From Octopus vulgaris (taxonomy: Eukaryota), in assembly GCA_951406725.2 (NCBI GenBank), contig OX597827.1, forward strand, positions 65,286,001 through 65,350,000: DNA of 64,000 nt. The letters are read 5' to 3'. Positions within the stretch are counted from its first letter, which is position 1; each line of letters opens with the position of its first letter. Position numbers and translations under genes: made by a program. The notes beneath the pieces were generated by a model, which was given only the letters and a program-made list of their open reading frames with translations, was not told the origin of the DNA and searched no databases. Below, piece by piece: positions 3,524 through 56,147 of this stretch.

Positions 3524-3578
<55 letters not shown>

Positions 3579-3580
<2 letters not shown>

Positions 3581-3899
3581 AAAATTAAGGGTAAAAATTG
3601 ATATCAGTCAATTAAAACCAGTGGTCTAGCACATTAACAAGAATCCGAAGATTAAAATATTTATATATACCAATTAAGGACTGAACACGAAAAAGTGGAC
3701 AGTCAACATGCTAGATATAGACGTCAAATCGCCATTCTCCACAAAGATTTTGTTCTCAAAAAAATAAAATAAAATAAAATTCAGCACGAATTCAGTCGTG
3801 CTGAATTTTATTTTATTTGAGAACAAAATCTTTGTGGAGAAATGGCGATTTGACGTCTATATCTAGCATGTTGACTGTCCACTTTTTCGTGTTCAATCC

Positions 3900-3904
<5 letters not shown>
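3579..3904. mobile_element. (TA)n-embedded fold-back element with ~110-bp palindromic arms
   Basis: 3673-3789 is a near-perfect reverse complement of 3796-3904 with a 6-nt loop; unique extension 3579-3672; (TA)n on both sides. Confidence 0.85.
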
Positions 3905-3938
<34 letters not shown>

Positions 3939-12508: not shown

Positions 12509-13070
12509 AGGCGTAGGAGTAGCTGTATGGTAGTAGCTTGCTTACGAACCACATGGTTCCTGGTTCAGTCCCACAGCGTGGCATCTTGGGCAGGTGTCTT
12601 CTACTATAGCCACGGGCCGACCAAAGCCTTGTGAGTGGATTTGGTAGACGGAAACTGAAAGAATCCCGTCGTATATATGTATATGTATATATATATATAT
12701 TTTTTTTTTTTTCTTTATCTAAAAGCAACAGAAATTCAACAAAACTTGTTACTCGGAGTTTCCCGTTCGTCGGACAGTTTGGTATTTGAGTACTCTTTTT
12801 TACCACCTTGTTTCACATTTATGTGTTTACTCCGGTCTATATATATACATAAATATGCATGTATATGTGTTTCTGTGTTTGTCCCCCAAACATCGCTTAA
12901 CAACCGATGCTGGGGTGTTTACGCCCCCTTAACTTACCGGTTCGGCAAAAGAGACCGAAAGAATAAGCATTAGGCTTACAAAGAACAAATCCTGGGGTCG
13001 ATTTGCTCGACTAAAAAGGCGGTGCTCCATCATGGCCACAGTCAAATGACCGAAACAAGTGAAAGAGTAA
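12509..13070 (+). mobile_element. SINE family A with nested insert in its internal microsatellite
   Basis: Full head aggcgtaggagtagctg... to tail gtgaaagagt; interrupted at about 12700-12838. Confidence 0.9.
12747..12776 (-). ncRNA. minimal type-I hammerhead ribozyme motif (stem II absent)
   Basis: Minus strand ugu-CCGACGA-acgg-GAAAC-uccga-GUA-aca. Confidence 0.5.
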
Positions 13071-13152
13071 ACATTATTATGTTGTGTAAAAAGTAAAAGT
13101 TTAAAAATTCTAGAAAAGGATATCATAACCAGTTTCGCTAAGATTGATATAT

Positions 13153-13368
13153 ACTCTTTTACTCTTTTACTTGTTTCAGTCATTTGACTGCGGCCATGCT
13201 GGAGCACCGCCTTTAGTCGAGCAAATCGACCCCGGGACTTATTCTTTGTAAGCCCAGTACTTATTCTATCGGTCTCTTTTGCCGAATAGCCAAGTGACGG
13301 GGACGTAAACGCTCCAGCATCGGTTGTCAAGCAATGCTAGGGGGACAAACACAGACACACAAACACAC

Positions 13369-14227: not shown

Positions 14228-15462
14228 CGAGGGGCGTTCAATAAGTAATGCCTCTGACCCACTTGCAGTTGTTTAATATAGGCAAATTACAGCTCTGAAC
14301 TAATTGTGGTTTCTGATTTACAGGTGTTTGAACTGAGTCAAGTGTGAAACGGAGCCTGTTGAGTGTCGAGCAGTGATGCGGTTTTTGTATTTGAAAGGAC
14401 GCACACCACGGGAGACTTTTGATGAAATAAAAGTAACTTATGGTGATGACGCCCCATCATATGATCTTGTAAAACACTGGCATCGTGAATTCAAACATGG
14501 TCGGAACTTTGTGGAAACAGCTCCCAGATCTGGTCGCCCCCTTCTGCCATTGATGAGGCATCTGTCCGTCAAGTTGAGGCTGCCATTTTGGAAGATCGAC
14601 GCATAGCTATTCGCCAAATAGCCCATGAGGTTAAGATTAGTACCGGGTTTGTGGAAACTATCATTCATGACCATTTGCATATGCAAAAGGTTTCTGCCAG
14701 ATGGATTCCCAGGCTGCTCACACCTTTCCAGAAGCAAGAACGCGTCGATAGCGCGAGGATGAATTTGAAGATGTGCCAAGAAGATGAGTCAACTTTTTTC
14801 AAAAGACTGATTATACAGGATGAAACCTGGGTCCATCACTATGATCCATAGACCAAAGCCCAGTCAATGCAGGGGAAGCACCGTGTCTCACCTCCTCCAA
14901 AGAAGGCAAGGGTGCAGCCCTCCGCTGGCAAGGTCATGCTCACAGTCTTCTGGGACCAGGACGGAGTAGTGATGACAGATTTCTTGGCAAAGGGTGCCAC
15001 AATTACAGGAGTCTATTATGCTTCACTTTTGAGGAAATTAAGAGAAGCTATCAAAATCAAGAGGCGGGGCAAGATCAGCAAAGGCATCCTCCTCCTGCAG
15101 GACAACGCTCCGATCCACAACTCGCGTGTCGCCAGATCAGAAGCACAGGCGTGCGGCTATGAACTCATCCCCCATCTCCTGACCTGCACCCTCTGATTTT
15201 CACCTCTTCCCAGCCATGAAGTTGTTTTTGAAAGGAAAGCGTTTCCCAGATGATGCAGCCTTGATTTCTGAAGTCACGTCGTGGTTGGAGGACCAAGCTG
15301 GGGTCTTCTACAAAAACGGTCTTCAGAGCTGCATCAAACGATGGGAGAAATGCGTAGCTCTGGGTGGTTCCTATGTTGAAAAAGACTAATAACTGTGCCA
15401 AGTTTCGTTGCTCTACTACTATGGGAAGTGGGTCAGGGGCATTACTTATTGAACGCCCCTCG
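14228..15462 (+). mobile_element. full-length mariner DNA transposon (DD34D), inactivated
   Basis: TIRs cgaggggcgttcaataagtaatgcc / ggcattacttattgaacgcccctcg, TA TSD, inserted in a TA-rich tract; 1235 bp. Confidence 0.96.
14349..15389 (+). pseudogene. mariner transposase pseudogene
   Basis: ORF pieces 14373-14606, 14588-14851, 14867-15196 with KVSARWIPRLLT, DETWVHHYDP, KVMLTVFWD, LLQDNAPIH and an SPDL..SDFHLF remnant; start codon mutated (ACG), frameshifts and a stop. Confidence 0.93.
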
Positions 15463-28911: not shown

Positions 28912-29153
28912 TATAAATTATTTGATGGATTCTCACAGCTTATTTTGCTGGGTATGATGGAAAGTGTCCGCTGTCCATAGCAAGCAAACAAAGGTGACAT
29001 TTGTTTACTGGTCATGCTTCAATAATTCTCTGAAGAATTATTGCAGTTTCGAAGCAATGCTGATTTTTGTAGGTGTTCTACCATTACATTTGTAGCAATC
29101 TTTTTGATCCATGTTGGTAGTTGAGTGCTGATACTTCCAAGTGCACCAATTAT
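28912..29153 (-). mobile_element. 3' end of R4/Dong-clade (restriction-like endonuclease) LINE
   Basis: Minus frame IIGALGSISTQLPTWIKKIATNVMVEHLQKSALL matches the C-terminal VIGALG...LQKxxLLG signature; short 3'UTR runs into (TAA)n at 28858-28910. Confidence 0.75.
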
Positions 29154-29181
29154 CATCATCACCACCGCCACCACCACCACC

Positions 29182-29215
<34 letters not shown>

Positions 29216-30000
29216 TCATCATCATTATTTAATGAGAGAGCAGCGAGTGCCATGAAAGTGACACTGGTGTAGAAATATACGAAGCCCAATATACCCGACA
29301 CGACTGCCTGTCCAATAAGCGTGGACAGGAATCTGCATCACATCACAGTCATATATATATATATGCAGGCGATTCTGATAATGATTATGATGTTTATGAC
29401 GGTGATGCCGTAAATGGAATTGAAAGAAAAATCCGCAAAATGTATAGGAAACAGGAAGAAGAAGTAAGTATGGAGGTGTACAAAGCATAAATAATTGCAT
29501 AGTAATCTCTAGCATATATTACAAAATACAGAGGAAATACATAAACTTAATAATTAGATACGTATCTAGCTAGAGAAATAACCAATCTAGTATTAGCGTT
29601 AGTTATATTACTCAAGTGGTAGTTGTTGTTGTTGTTATTGTTGTAATATGCCGGTAATAACAACGACGTTGCTAATATTACAACTATTAATCTTAATAGC
29701 ATTGTTAATGTTTTATTTTTCTGCTTACATTTTTGCTTTTTGCTTTTTGTTTTTATCTCGTTACCTGTTATGAATAATGTGAAACTTACGATGGTTTTTA
29801 AGTTGAAATTTTTGAATTTCTGCATTACTCTCTGTTTTTCATTTTTCAAATATGTTCAACCAAAAGAAGACAAACATACTCTCGAAATATTGCTCCTTTG
29901 AATAAATAGTGTCAATCTATATTTTATTACGTATCATATCGCTCTATTCTCATTAGGCATTTATTATTTTTTTTTGGAGTCGTACGTCAAGCTTTGTGTA

Positions 30001-41545: not shown

Positions 41546-41676
41546 CTATGTGAGGTATCTTATCTTTTAAATTATACGCATTTCAGTGATTGTACAACGG
41601 CCATACTTGTTGGACAGCCTTAATTTGTTGACAACATCGGTATATATTTAGTTGATGTCGTTTTACGAACCGCCAG

Positions 41677-41870
41677 GCTTTTGGAGGATGAATAAACCTA
41701 CACCCGCTTTCAAGAGGTGAGGTGGAGAAACAGAAATAAAAAGATATCTGTGTGCGCACAAACACGCACATATATGTACGCGCGCGCACACATACACACT
41801 CCTGTATGCAACTCTCTGAGTATCCCTGTCTTTCTGTGTGTCTATCTATCTATCTATCTATCTATCAATC

Positions 41871-41927
<57 letters not shown>

Positions 41928-41944
41928 GTATATATACATAGATT

Positions 41945-41998
<54 letters not shown>

Positions 41999-42162
41999 CA
42001 CACAGACAGACAGGGATACTCAGAGAGTTGCATGCAGGAGTGTGTATGTGTGCGCGCGAGTACATGTATGTGTGTGTTTATGCGCACACAGGTATCTGTT
42101 TAGTTGTGCTTCTCCACCTCACCTCTTGAAAGTGGGTGTAGGTTTGTTCATCCTCCAAAAGC
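41677..42162. repeat. inverted duplication centred on (TA)n
   Basis: 41677-41885 matches the reverse complement of 41925-42162 with scattered substitutions; both arms include the (ATCT)n tract. Confidence 0.9.
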
Positions 42163-42590
42163 GTGTTATATGGTAGTGAAACATGGGCTACCACAAAGAG
42201 AGAAGAGAAAAGACTGGTAACGGCTCAAAGAGCCATGGAAAGGTCAATGCTTAGTATCTCGTTGAGAGAGCACGTAAGTAGCAAGATCATCAGAAAGAAG
42301 TCCGGCGTGAGAGATGTCATCGCAGAGTATACACGCAGCAAGTATAGATGGGCTGGACACGTCGCCCGGCTCACCGATAATCGGTGGACGCACGCAGTTG
42401 CAGAGTGGTACCCGCGTGAGCGGAAAAGACCACCCGGAAGACCTCCACGACGGTGGAGTTACGATTTCAGGAGGACGATTGGGATCACGTGGATGAGAAA
42501 GGCGCGATCCAGAGAGGAGTGGACTGCGTGCTGTGACCAGCGGTGTCAAATGGACGCCTGACGGACTGGTTGGTCAACGTGATCAAGGTG
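42163..42590 (+). mobile_element. 5'-truncated RTE-clade LINE, open C-terminal ORF (132 aa) plus short 3'UTR
   Basis: LYGSETW, AQRAMERSML, RWAGHVAR..DNRWT, WYPRERKRPPGRPPRRW motifs; ends at (TA)n. Confidence 0.93.
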
Positions 42591-53477: not shown

Positions 53478-53662
53478 TCTATATATATGCATATATACGA
53501 CGGGCTTCTTTTCAGCTTCCGTCTACCATATCCAGTCACAAGGCTTTGATCGACCCGAGGCTATAGTGGAAGACACTTGTCCAAGGTGCCACGCAGTGGG
53601 ACTGAACCCGGACCTATGTGGTTCGTAAGGAAGCTACTTACCACTCAGCCACTCCTACGCCT
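53218..53662 (-). mobile_element. SINE family A flanked by ~150-bp direct duplication
   Basis: Full-length SINE; 53059-53219 repeated at 53664-53808. Confidence 0.92.
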
Positions 53663-54233
53663 ATATTAGTGATTGAAAGACAATCACAGTAAGAAATTAT
53701 ACACACATACACACACACAGACACGTATATATACATATATATCTATACATATTTATGTTTGTATGTGTGTGTGTGTGTGTGTATGTGTGTGTGGGCATTA
53801 GGTATTTATTGAATTTTTTTTTCAAAATTGGTAAGCCAAGTAAACAAAGCTTGTATATCACCGATAGAAACATGTCAAATAATAATATCACAACCGTCAC
53901 GACCATCAGCAGCATTAACAACAACAATGACAGCGATCAAAATCCCCTCCCCCAAAACGTCTGGCCTTGTGCCTAGAAGTAGAAAAGATAATAAATGTTG
54001 ATGCAAAACTACGTCAGAGGTGTACTCGAGGGCACTTTGATGTTGGAATTCAATTGTTGTTGAACATATAGCCCCCAATGTAAAGTTACTCAAGAGTACG
54101 CAAACAGAGATTCATATAATACATACACACGTACGCACTCATAGATACAAACGTACACGCATGTGCTTATCATATATACGTACATACCGATGTATATATA
54201 AATATATAAATACATACATATACATACATACAT

Positions 54234-54290
<57 letters not shown>

Positions 54291-54297
<7 letters not shown>

Positions 54298-54728
54298 ATA
54301 GTAAAGTGTGAAAAACGACAGAAGGCTTAAATGTTAAAAAATATATATATTTGTGTCAAAATGTCTGGAGAATATTGGAAAAATTTTTTTCCTTTCCTTA
54401 AAATGACATAATTTTAAAATTTTTAAAGAAATTACCGGTTTCGCGTGTAGCTTCAAATTTCTTGTGACGTTATGTTTATATTGCATGGAATTATAATATA
54501 AACATAACGTCACAAGAAATTTGAAAAGCTACACGCGAAACCGGTAATTTCTTTAAAAAATTTTAAAATTATGTCATTTTAAGGAAAGGAAAAAAATTTT
54601 TCCAATATTCTCCAGACATTTTGACACAAATATATATATTTTTTAACATTTAAGCCTTCTGTCGTTTTTTCACACTTTACTATTTTCTTATATATTCACC
54701 CACGTGCTTTACCAAACAAACTTTCTTA

Positions 54729-54730
<2 letters not shown>
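54291..54730 (+). mobile_element. (TA)n-embedded fold-back element with ~190-bp arms carrying a hammerhead
   Basis: 54291-54482 is the reverse complement of 54495-54690; unique tail 54691-54730; (TA)n on both sides. Confidence 0.88.
54514..54553 (+). ncRNA. minimal type-I hammerhead ribozyme (U3-A8 variant)
   Basis: aagaaau-UUGAAAA-gc(uacac)gc-GAAACCGGUA-auuucuu: 7-bp stem I, palindromic stem III ACCGGU, GUA site. Confidence 0.7.
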
Positions 54731-54797
<67 letters not shown>

Positions 54798-54799
<2 letters not shown>

Positions 54800-55271
54800 A
54801 ATAGAAATATTAAAATTACTAAGTCTCTCTAAAGGAGATTACGGCAGCGTTACTGGAAATTAATAGTTATCGCCATACTAATATGGCACTCTTATAAATA
54901 TAAGACTAAAGCTGTCGCTGATTAGCTCCATGAGGCCACCGCCTCAAGCTAGATATTTATCACACAAACTGCGTCCATTATAAACCTTCGGACAGGGGAG
55001 GTCAGCCGCTTCATCCTGCCAGTCAGACAGCTGCAGACATTGTTTCAGGGTATCTGCCCTTTATCAATGCAGCGTAGTCAGACCCAGCAGGTGTTGCTAC
55101 TGACTGTCCCTGTTCGAAGAATCTATTTACCTAGTTTCAGTGGAATACATCCACTTGTTTTCAATAATAGAAATATTAAAATTACTAAGTCTCTCTAAAG
55201 GGGATTACGGCAGCGTTACTGGAAATTAATAGTTATCGCCATACTATTATGGCAGTCTTATAAATATAAGA
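54798..55271 (-). mobile_element. retrozyme-like 1.3-mer (366-bp unit, 108-bp terminal direct repeat)
   Basis: 54798-54905 repeated at 55164-55271 (3 mismatches); internal hammerhead; no ORF; (TA)n on the left. Confidence 0.75.
55030..55073 (-). ncRNA. type-I hammerhead ribozyme (U3-A8 variant)
   Basis: Minus strand gcugca-UUGAUAA-aggg(cagaua)cccu-GAAAC(aau)GUC-ugcagc; all three stems pair. Confidence 0.82.
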
Positions 55272-55576: not shown

Positions 55577-56147
55577 AATACCTATTTCTTTACTTCCCAC
55601 AAGGGGCTACATACAGAGGGGACAAACAAGGACAGACAAACGGATTAAGTCGATTACATCGACCCCAGTGCGTAACTGGTACTTATTTAATCGACACCGA
55701 AAGGATGAAAGGCAAAGTCGACCTCGGCGGAATTTTGACTCAGAACGTAGCGGCAGACGAAATACCTATTTCTTTACTACCCACAAGGGGCTACACATAG
55801 AGTGGGCAAACAAGGACAGACAAACGGATTAAGTCGATTACATCGACCCCAGTGCGTAACTGGTAATTATTTAATCGACGCCGAAAGGATCAAAGGCAAA
55901 GCCGACCTCGGCGGAACGGCAGACAAAATACCTATTTCTTTACTACCCACAAGGGGCTACGCATAGAGTGGGCAAACGGGTTAAGTCGATTACATTGACC
56001 CCAGTGCGTAACTAGTACTTAATTTATCGACGTCGAATGGATGAAAGGCAAAGTCGACCTCGGCGGAATTTGAACTCAGAACGTAACGGCAGAGGAAATG
56101 CGGCTACGCATTTCGTCCGGCGTGCTAACGTTTCTTCCAGCTCGCCG
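55577..56147 (-). mobile_element. SINE family B trimer
   Basis: One full head plus two further units joined at aaatac|ctatttctttac (about 55765 and 55931). Confidence 0.92.

What the first reader, a model, noticed from the sequence alone, without database searches (positions are those of the whole stretch)
54291..54730. Near-perfect ~190-bp palindrome containing a hammerhead and its antisense copy
Seen: arms 54291-54482 and 54495-54690 with a 12-nt loop and a 40-nt unique tail on the right. The right arm has an intact UUGAAAA core; the left arm copy (54426-54463, minus strand) lacks two core A's. Known: Penelope insertions often carry an inverted, truncated copy at their 5' end. Inference: formed by fold-back synthesis during integration. 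A read-through transcript would form long dsRNA that sequesters the ribozyme and could feed ADAR or siRNA pathways.
Basis: partly seen in the sequence, partly recalled or inferred. Interest (0 to 1): 0.7.

Follow-up and report, generated by a model that had tools for sequence, protein, structure and literature searches.

The report
Head-to-head Penelope stub with hammerhead
The palindrome is real and is made of two cut-short copies of one abundant repeat joined head to head inside a TA microsatellite; it is likely an ordinary insertion stub of a Penelope-like jumping gene, and its predicted hammerhead ribozyme has not been shown to cut or to be transcribed here.

Summary
The palindrome is confirmed (arms 54286-54482 and 54495-54695, 97.5% alike). 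The right arm holds a minimal type-I hammerhead pattern with the published U3-A8 core; the left copy lacks two core A's. Contigs from 4 public runs show a very abundant repeat family. The 12-nt 'loop' is family sequence that belongs to the left copy. One contig is a plain, non-palindromic member. Members end either at 54695 or after a 34-35-nt tail, and two contigs suggest head-to-head joins at other centres. This is the published insertion architecture of Penelope-like elements (inverted 5'-truncated copy, optional 30-40-bp tail, microsatellite target) and argues against a MITE. Simple fold-back cannot be the whole mechanism, since each arm holds letters the other lacks; two separately primed cDNAs fit better (inferred). 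Not shown: the autonomous partner, cleavage, transcription of this locus, ADAR or siRNA use, and independent support for this junction. A second, unrelated hammerhead-bearing repeat (54798-55271, minus strand) ends in the same TA tract. Verdict: new member of a known kind, low interest.

The parts
54246..54290 (.). Left (TA)n tract, preceded by (TACA)n-type repeat; likely target site
   Evidence: sequence
54286..54494 (-). Left copy: 5'-truncated, tail-less family copy on the minus strand, including the 12-nt 'loop' as its 5' end; its 3' end matches the recurrent family end (54695 in right-arm coordinates)
   Evidence: loose ends behind 54494 in 4 of 4 runs and behind 54695
54426..54463 (-). 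Hammerhead copy of the left arm, two core A's missing (real mutation or assembly error, undecided)
   Evidence: table 4
54483..54494 (-). 12-nt spacer of the palindrome = family sequence upstream of the hammerhead
   Evidence: tables 7 and 8 (record 9)
54495..54695 (+). Right copy: 5'-truncated family copy on the plus strand, starting 26 nt upstream of the hammerhead core
54514..54553 (+). Predicted minimal type-I hammerhead, U3-A8 core (54521-54527), 2-bp helix II, self-complementary helix III, predicted cut after 54546
   Evidence: compared with PMC4209133
54696..54730 (+). 34-35-nt optional tail, present in only part of the family
   Evidence: tables 2, 7, 8; PMC8557442 passage
54731..54797 (.). 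Right (TA)n tract, shared with the neighbouring element
   Evidence: sequence
54798..55271 (-). Neighbour, not homologous to the palindrome: 108-nt direct repeats 366 nt apart (97%), with a second U3-A8 hammerhead pattern at 55030-55073; its 3' end faces the same TA tract

Best explanation
The palindrome consists of two 5'-truncated copies of the end of one abundant hammerhead-pattern repeat, lying head to head in a TA microsatellite, and is likely a single short insertion made by the reverse transcriptase and endonuclease of a Penelope-like element. Shown: the two arms, their unequal ends, the family's two recurrent 3' ends, a non-palindromic member. Inferred mechanism: the element's protein cut both strands of the AT-rich target; each free end primed its own cDNA on element RNA, one from the tail end and one from the start site about 35 nt further in; both stopped early, 26 and 38 nt upstream of the hammerhead core, and were joined head to head by end-joining or by a short fold-back step. 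The stub encodes nothing and would be inert; the hammerhead is a passenger that would cut only as a dimer or with the element's protein. If any transcript ran through the site it is predicted to form a ~195-bp hairpin, as a by-product.
For: Arms, spacer and tail. Hammerhead pattern 2 hits vs 1 in 30 shuffles; U3-A8 covariation, G10.1-C11.1 and palindromic helix III are published traits of Penelope hammerheads, and pairs of motifs 100-700 bp apart on opposite strands were noted there (PMC4209133). Family: 20 of 24 listed runs hold half or more of the sampled words, 11 studies, 7 organism labels; 1816, 638, 468 and 3 contigs laid from X1, X2, X4, X13. Spacer is family sequence: loose ends behind 54494 continue with like letters in 5, 4, 3 and 1 contigs. 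X13 record 9 (340 nt) runs 75 nt upstream + spacer + arm with the full core + tail, then a microsatellite, with no mirror arm. Two 3' ends: 8 contigs of X1 pass into (AT)n behind 54695 and listed pieces of X2 and X4 stop matching there; one contig each of X4 and X13 pass into a microsatellite behind 54729 and 54727; summed depth over the tail is 0.14, 0.38 and 0.37 of the bin before it in X1, X2, X4 (no copy number). Two X1 contigs jump from left to right arm at other places (54344>54662, 54453>54513), as head-to-head joins with other centres would. A 2-contig loose end in X2 reads as a relative with G at core position 8 and another loop II but the same helix II. None of the 6 listed letter changes falls in 54514-54553. 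Published architecture: inverted 5'-truncated copy, 30-40-bp tail, (TA)n bias (PMC8557442; PMC3846280). In vitro, a Penelope protein cuts and extends both target strands and starts at two sites that bound the tail (PMC11167929).
Against: No reverse transcriptase or GIY-YIG frame could be tied to the family: no whole genome is held, and none of 150 window frames scanned (of 187 that passed my filter) hit such a Pfam family. Rfam does not recognise the hammerhead; its helix II has 2 bp, shorter than in the rows of the published alignment I read, it lacks the extra nucleotide after position 9 of most Penelope hammerheads, and it folds no better than shuffles. No listed contig bridges the 54494/54495 junction (27 contigs shown, 2906 more pieces not shown) and no run holds all sampled words (best 0.82; family-only words would give about 0.68), so this junction rests on the window alone. 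The two other-centre joins are single contigs with 29 letters on the short side. No target-site duplication can be read in (TA)n. Arkhipova et al. read such junctions as self-priming.
Confidence: 0.82

Rival explanations
1. Same Penelope-like origin, but made by fold-back: one cDNA (the left arm with the spacer) turned on itself and copied itself, and the left tail was lost afterwards, or the right outer part came from a second cDNA that annealed to the folded-back strand. This is the first reader's mechanism and competes only with the two-cDNA step of the best explanation.
For: The spacer is continuous with one arm, as in a fold-back product. Arms are 97.5% alike. Self-priming was proposed for Penelope inverted junctions (PMC3846280) and endonuclease trimming for the one-sided tail (PMC8557442).
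Against: The tail is only on the arm that would be the copy; 0 Watson-Crick pairs adjoin the junction inside the spacer; at the run near 54419/54560 the arms differ at a place that varies in the family, and X13 record 9 sides with the left arm there but with the right arm at the core.
Confidence: 0.33
2. A palindromic non-autonomous DNA transposon (MITE or foldback type) inserted at TA, the hammerhead pattern being chance or captured.
For: Long inverted repeat, TA on both sides, high copy number, no ORF; mariner remnants exist in the window.
Against: Ends are unequal; a non-palindromic member exists; the spacer continues into more family sequence; joins at other centres are seen; the pattern is rare in shuffles.
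Confidence: 0.05
3. The mirror image is an assembly or library fold-back artefact of a single family copy.
For: No listed contig bridges the junction and no run holds all words; the three indels all shorten homopolymer runs in one arm, a pattern typical of long-read error (own knowledge); complex Penelope insertions trouble assemblies.
Against: An artefact would mirror the flanks too, but the flanks differ, the left arm stops at a natural family end and the right arm at the other, and the left arm has 12 family letters the right lacks. The indels may be errors even if the palindrome is real.
Confidence: 0.07
4. A host-kept hairpin RNA gene (siRNA or microRNA-like precursor, or ADAR substrate) whose job is to silence the family.
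For: Predicted very stable hairpin; Penelope repeats are heavily edited in lizard and octopus has abundant dsRNA-forming loci (PMC5625713); Penelope copies give small RNAs in a rotifer.
Against: Near-identity to the family and no sign of locus-specific conservation; Rfam microRNA hits are all far below gathering score and reflect any hairpin; no host exon found in the window.
Confidence: 0.04

Closest known systems
Insertion architecture of endonuclease-bearing Penelope-like elements: inverted 5'-truncated copy plus optional 30-40-bp tail (Craig et al. 2021, PMC8557442; Arkhipova et al. 2013, PMC3846280)
   Same: Head-to-head arrangement, unequal 5' truncation, tail on one side only (34-35 nt), microsatellite target, no readable target duplication.
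   Different: Here the whole insertion is only about 445 bp, with no ORF and no tandem copy; the autonomous partner is unidentified.
Minimal type-I hammerheads of metazoan Penelope-like elements (Cervera and de la Pena 2014, PMC4209133); closest rows read: Marsupenaeus japonicus PLE (7-nt core, small palindromic helix III, A at 17) and Schistosoma mansoni U3-A8 variants
   Same: U3-A8 covariation, G10.1-C11.1, self-complementary helix III suited to dimer formation, NUH site, AU-rich surroundings.
   Different: Helix II is only 2 bp; no extra nucleotide between 9 and 10.1; the combination of U3-A8 with a 7-nt core is not among the alignment rows I read; no octopus entry in the supplement file searched.
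Poseidon element PAc of Anolis (Frangieh et al. 2024, PMC11167929)
   Same: Hammerhead upstream of two 3' ends that bound the tail; AT-rich target; both-strand priming would explain the two arms.
   Different: In PAc the ORF starts inside the hammerhead; here no open frame follows it, and the 3' ends lie 149 and 183 nt past the predicted cut.
Animal non-LTR retrozymes (as described in bioRxiv 10.64898/2026.07.22.740005)
   Same: Non-coding, type-I hammerhead, probable non-autonomous derivative of Penelope-like elements; solo monomers are described.
   Different: Retrozymes are defined by head-to-tail units each with a hammerhead; this locus is head to head. The neighbour at 54798-55271 (1.3 units of 366 nt) is closer to that plan.
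Naiad elements of Octopus (Naiad_Obim, Naiad_Ovul; supplement of PMC8557442)
   Same: (TA)n preference, inverted copies and tail.
   Different: Naiads lack canonical hammerheads; the parts of the two octopus consensus sequences shown do not resemble this family by eye.

Membership tests
Penelope-like element (EN+) | Single ORF with telomerase-like RT and GIY-YIG endonuclease, in the element or its autonomous partner | not testable with these tools
   No ORF in the stub; no genome held; 0 of 150 window frames hit GIY-YIG or core RT Pfam families; contigs laid reach only 75 nt upstream.
Penelope-like element (EN+) | Type-I hammerhead in the terminal repeat, sense strand, upstream of the 3' end | tested here: met
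   Pattern at 54514-54553, 2 hits vs 1 in 30 shuffles; met by pattern only, Rfam negative, cleavage untested.
Penelope-like element (EN+) | Inverted 5'-truncated copy adjoining the 5' end | tested here: met
   spacer belongs to the inverted copy.
Penelope-like element (EN+) | Optional 30-40-bp tail at one end | tested here: met
   34-35 nt; two recurrent 3' ends in family contigs.
Penelope-like element (EN+) | Variable 5' truncation | tested here: met
   Arms start 12 nt apart; family continues upstream; loose ends before 54514-54515 and joins at other centres.
Penelope-like element (EN+) | Partial tandem forming direct pseudo-LTRs | tested here: inconclusive
   Absent at this locus, but truncated stubs need not have it; family-wide arrangement not visible in short contigs.
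Penelope-like element (EN+) | Target-site duplication or microsatellite target | tested here: inconclusive
   (TA)n on both sides fits the microsatellite bias but hides any duplication.
Minimal PLE hammerhead (Cervera 2014) | 3-8 pair (C-G or U-A), G10.1-C11.1, GAAA, NUH, palindromic helix III | tested here: met
   helix III self-duplex -8.3 kcal/mol.
Minimal PLE hammerhead (Cervera 2014) | [quoted passage not shown] | tested here: not met
   7-nt core and 2-bp helix II; two published rows also have the 7-nt core, so it is a variant, not the consensus type.
Minimal PLE hammerhead (Cervera 2014) | Self-cleavage (as dimer or protein-assisted) | not testable with these tools
   Needs an in vitro assay.
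Non-LTR retrozyme | At least two head-to-tail units, each with a complete type-I hammerhead | tested here: not met
   One complete motif, inverted arrangement (definition).
MITE / foldback DNA transposon | Identical terminal inverted repeats at both ends and a fixed centre in all copies | tested here: not met
   Unequal ends, non-palindromic member, other centres.
Naiad PLE | No canonical hammerhead; similarity to octopus Naiad consensus | tested here: inconclusive
   Hammerhead pattern present; only the ends of the two consensus sequences were seen, unlike by eye; no alignment run.

The most novel reading that the evidence does not exclude
A very abundant, several-species family of non-coding Penelope derivatives with an unusually stripped hammerhead (U3-A8, 2-bp helix II, dimer-only) builds near-perfect hairpins anew at each insertion by priming two cDNAs from the two cut target ends. 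Such stubs would be the in-vivo footprint of the both-strand, two-start-site priming seen in vitro, and, if the host is an octopus as it appears, a main renewable source of the long dsRNA behind cephalopod hyper-editing.
Probability: 0.12. Interest if true: 0.55.

Novelty: new member of a known kind. Interest (0 to 1): 0.2.

Why it matters
As a single locus it matters little: it is one dead stub of a described insertion type. It is useful in two ways. First, its unequal arms are a simple logical test of how Penelope inverted repeats arise, favouring two primed cDNAs over plain fold-back, and the family looks large enough to test this by counting. Second, two unrelated U3-A8 hammerhead families sit side by side, and I found no paper on hammerheads in octopus repeats in the library (searches; 'ribozyme' 0 times in the 2026 Octopus vulgaris repeat annotation), so the family may be unannotated as ribozyme-bearing; most subscription papers and repeat databases were not searched.

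Tried and rejected
Rfam: 0 matches at gathering in 64 kb; 26 matches at E<=10 around the locus, mostly microRNA models matching the hairpin or TA repeats, all below gathering, no hammerhead: rejected as chance. Further family copies in the window: none beyond 13-36-nt low-complexity matches. Hammerhead motif scans of collections: metagenome 0, viral 4, prokaryotic genomes 15; blastn of the family against these 19 loci gave 4 hits confined to the motif, best E 3e-4 and the 4 viral hits have no U or C at core position 3: rejected as chance. Pfam on 150 of 187 filtered frames: 7 with E<=0.01, 2 above cut-off (mariner), none Penelope, no host exon; the UBE2O-like hit at 29041-29337 is a low-complexity run. 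Host naming by protein search with an RTE-like frame gave 11 relatives, none informative; the octopus reading rests on my recall of the look of the SINE at 53491-53665 and of the microsatellite-rich DNA, on no call. No RNA holder listed; X13 is only guessed to be RNA and its long contig is another copy, so it says nothing on this locus. A possible intron starting at the hammerhead cut, suggested by splice-like letters, found no matching joint among the 3 joints listed; contigs show presence only. Earlier scan notes by sequence and place: nothing. Homology between the two neighbouring elements: only short matches, best E 0.075: rejected.

Full report
Observation. The stretch 54286-54482 is the reverse complement of 54495-54695 at 97.5% over 201 columns (E 2.6e-93), around a 12-nt spacer at 54483-54494; a further 34-35 nt (54696-54730) follow on the right only, and (TA)n tracts lie on both sides. 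The arms differ by three homopolymer indels, all shorter on the left, and one substitution. On the plus strand 54514-54553 fits a minimal type-I hammerhead: 7-bp helix I, core with U3-A8, 2-bp helix II closed by G10.1-C11.1, GAAA, a self-complementary helix III and a GUA site. My relaxed scan found 2 such patterns in the window, against 1 in 30 shuffled windows. Against the ribozyme reading, Rfam finds no hammerhead and the 61-nt piece folds no better than shuffles (z 0.37); helix I is predicted at about 0.6 in that piece but at 0.001 in the whole right arm.

The family. No genome is held for the window, so I used public runs. 20 of 24 listed runs hold at least half of the 38 sampled words; they come from 11 studies and 7 organism labels; none holds all (best 0.82). 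Words that lie wholly in family sequence are about 218 of 321 distinct words, 0.68 (206 counted plus 12 by my arithmetic), so these shares do not show that any run holds this junction. I laid 4 of the 20 holders (X1, X2, X4, X13; labels A, B, C, A), all contigs: 1816, 638, 468 and 3 were laid. The output shows 21 loose ends and 27 contigs; 109 and 2906 more rows are hidden. (a) In all four runs contigs follow the left arm through the spacer to 54494 and go on with mutually similar other letters (5, 4, 3, 1 contigs). The spacer is therefore the family's own upstream sequence and belongs to the left copy. (b) X13 record 9, 340 nt, is a plain member: 75 nt upstream, spacer, arm with the full core, tail, then a microsatellite. 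(c) There are two 3' ends: behind 54695 (8 contigs of X1 pass into AT repeat; listed pieces of X2 and X4 also stop matching there) and behind 54727-54729 (one contig each in X13 and X4). Summed depth over the tail is 0.14, 0.38 and 0.37 of the bin before it in X1, X2 and X4; this is no copy number but shows an optional tail. (d) Two single X1 contigs pass from left arm to right arm at 54344>54662 and 54453>54513, as head-to-head joins with other centres would; each has only 29 letters on the short side. (e) A 2-contig loose end in X2 reads as a relative with G at core position 8, another loop II and the same helix II; the matching position 3 is not shown. None of the 6 listed substitutions lies in the hammerhead; one listed single-letter loss lies in loop II. 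(f) No listed contig bridges 54494/54495. At the core deletion 455 of 1302 depth in X1 (5 contigs), 68 of 135 in X2, 33 of 199 in X4 and 36 of 36 in X13 carry the two extra letters, while most contigs were laid on the right arm; whether the left-arm loss is real or an assembly error stays open.

What it is. Craig et al. 2021 (PMC8557442; passages read) describe for Penelope-like elements an inverted 5'-truncated copy adjoining the 5' end, a 30-40-bp tail at one end, and insertion bias for microsatellites including (TA)n. Arkhipova et al. 2013 (PMC3846280; passages) show the same in a rotifer. Cervera and de la Pena 2014 (PMC4209133; parts 1-2 of 4 and part 2 of supplement file 2) report the U3-A8 core, palindromic helix III, dimer dependence, no activity of a single motif, and motif pairs 100-700 bp apart on opposite strands. 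Five structural traits match here: hammerhead, inverted copy, tail, ragged 5' ends, microsatellite target. The defining ORF could not be tested: the stub has none and 0 of 150 window frames hit a Penelope domain. So it works like a Penelope-like insertion (about 0.85), and family membership is probable but not completed. A MITE is unlikely because ends are unequal, a single-arm member exists and centres vary.

How it arose. In sense orientation the left copy starts 38 nt and the right copy 26 nt upstream of the core; the left ends at the first family end, the right at the tail end. If the right arm had been made first and copied, the 12 spacer letters would have no template; if the left had been made first and copied, the tail would have none. 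There is also no Watson-Crick pair just inside the junction. Plain fold-back therefore needs an added step. Frangieh et al. 2024 (PMC11167929; parts 1-2 of 4) found that a Penelope protein cuts and extends both target strands in AT-rich DNA, starts at two sites that bound the tail, is predicted to be a dimer, and does not need hammerhead cleavage for insertion. Two cDNAs, one from each cut end and each start site, stopped early and joined head to head, give exactly this product. I put that at about 0.55, fold-back with later tail loss or as the joining step at about 0.35. This step is inferred, not shown; Arkhipova et al. favour self-priming.

The dsRNA claim. Either strand is predicted to fold into one hairpin of about -283 to -289 kcal/mol in which the hammerhead helices have probability 0.000. 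That is a consequence of any such palindrome. Nothing here shows the locus is transcribed: no host exon was recognised. Porath-type hyper-editing data (PMC5625713; passages) show that Penelope repeats are edited in lizard and that octopus has many dsRNA-forming loci, which makes the idea plausible in general, not here. The octopus assignment itself is recalled from the look of the SINE and comes from no call (one search did not name the host). Penelope families are abundant and partly recent in Octopus (PMC13282606 and PMC8967140; passages).

Neighbour. On the minus strand 54798-55271 holds 108-nt direct repeats 366 nt apart (97%) and a second U3-A8 hammerhead pattern at 55030-55073 with 6-bp helix I and 4-bp helix II, folding better than 200 of 200 shuffles (z -2.9). 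It is not homologous to the palindrome and ends in the same TA tract. It looks like 1.3 units of a retrozyme-like monomer (definition in bioRxiv 10.64898/2026.07.22.740005, part 1 of 5 read); I could not lay reads on it.

Verdict. Real, ordinary in kind. Earlier scan notes describe the same stump palindromes in other genomes (8 of 35 shown; unchecked AI notes, not counted as support). New member of a known kind; interest 0.2.

Noticed in passing
window 54798-55271 (minus): Second, unrelated hammerhead-bearing repeat: 108-nt direct repeats 366 nt apart, U3-A8 core at 55061-55067, better-formed helices than the finding's motif, 3' end in the same TA tract; retrozyme-like partial tandem.
   Followed up: partly
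window 3578-3902: Another head-to-head palindrome (arms about 3657-3788 and 3797-3920 by alignment, 118 of 133 columns alike) with TA tracts on both sides and a left arm about 80-90 nt longer; same asymmetric plan, different family, no hammerhead pattern found by my scan.
   Followed up: partly
window 41674-42165: Palindrome of about 240-nt arms (214 of 240 columns alike) centred on a TA tract, with GATA repeats in both arms; two copies of one repeat facing each other around a microsatellite.
   Followed up: no
window 12860-13367: Two SINE-like copies in inverted orientation (183 of 212 columns alike) 86 nt apart; another potential dsRNA source.
   Followed up: no
loose ends before 54514-54515 (X1 6 contigs, X2 3 contigs): Several family contigs stop matching at the outer edge of helix I, 6-7 nt upstream of the core, some against AT repeat, and depth peaks over 54516-54545; either a favoured 5' truncation point or sub-families sharing only the hammerhead.
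   Followed up: no
window 14337-15193 (plus): Broken mariner transposase (Pfam HTH_48 and Transposase_1 above cut-off).
   Followed up: no
window 42142-42558 (plus): C-terminal fragment of an endonuclease-reverse transcriptase of LINE type; named relatives come from a turtle and nematodes, a spread typical of horizontally moving RTE elements (own knowledge).
   Followed up: partly
window 55577-56099: Three head-to-tail copies of a 150-185-nt SINE-like unit directly beside the neighbour element.
   Followed up: no
window 53491-53665: SINE-like repeat with 10 matches in the window at 76-90% (self included); its look is what suggests an octopus host (recalled).
   Followed up: partly
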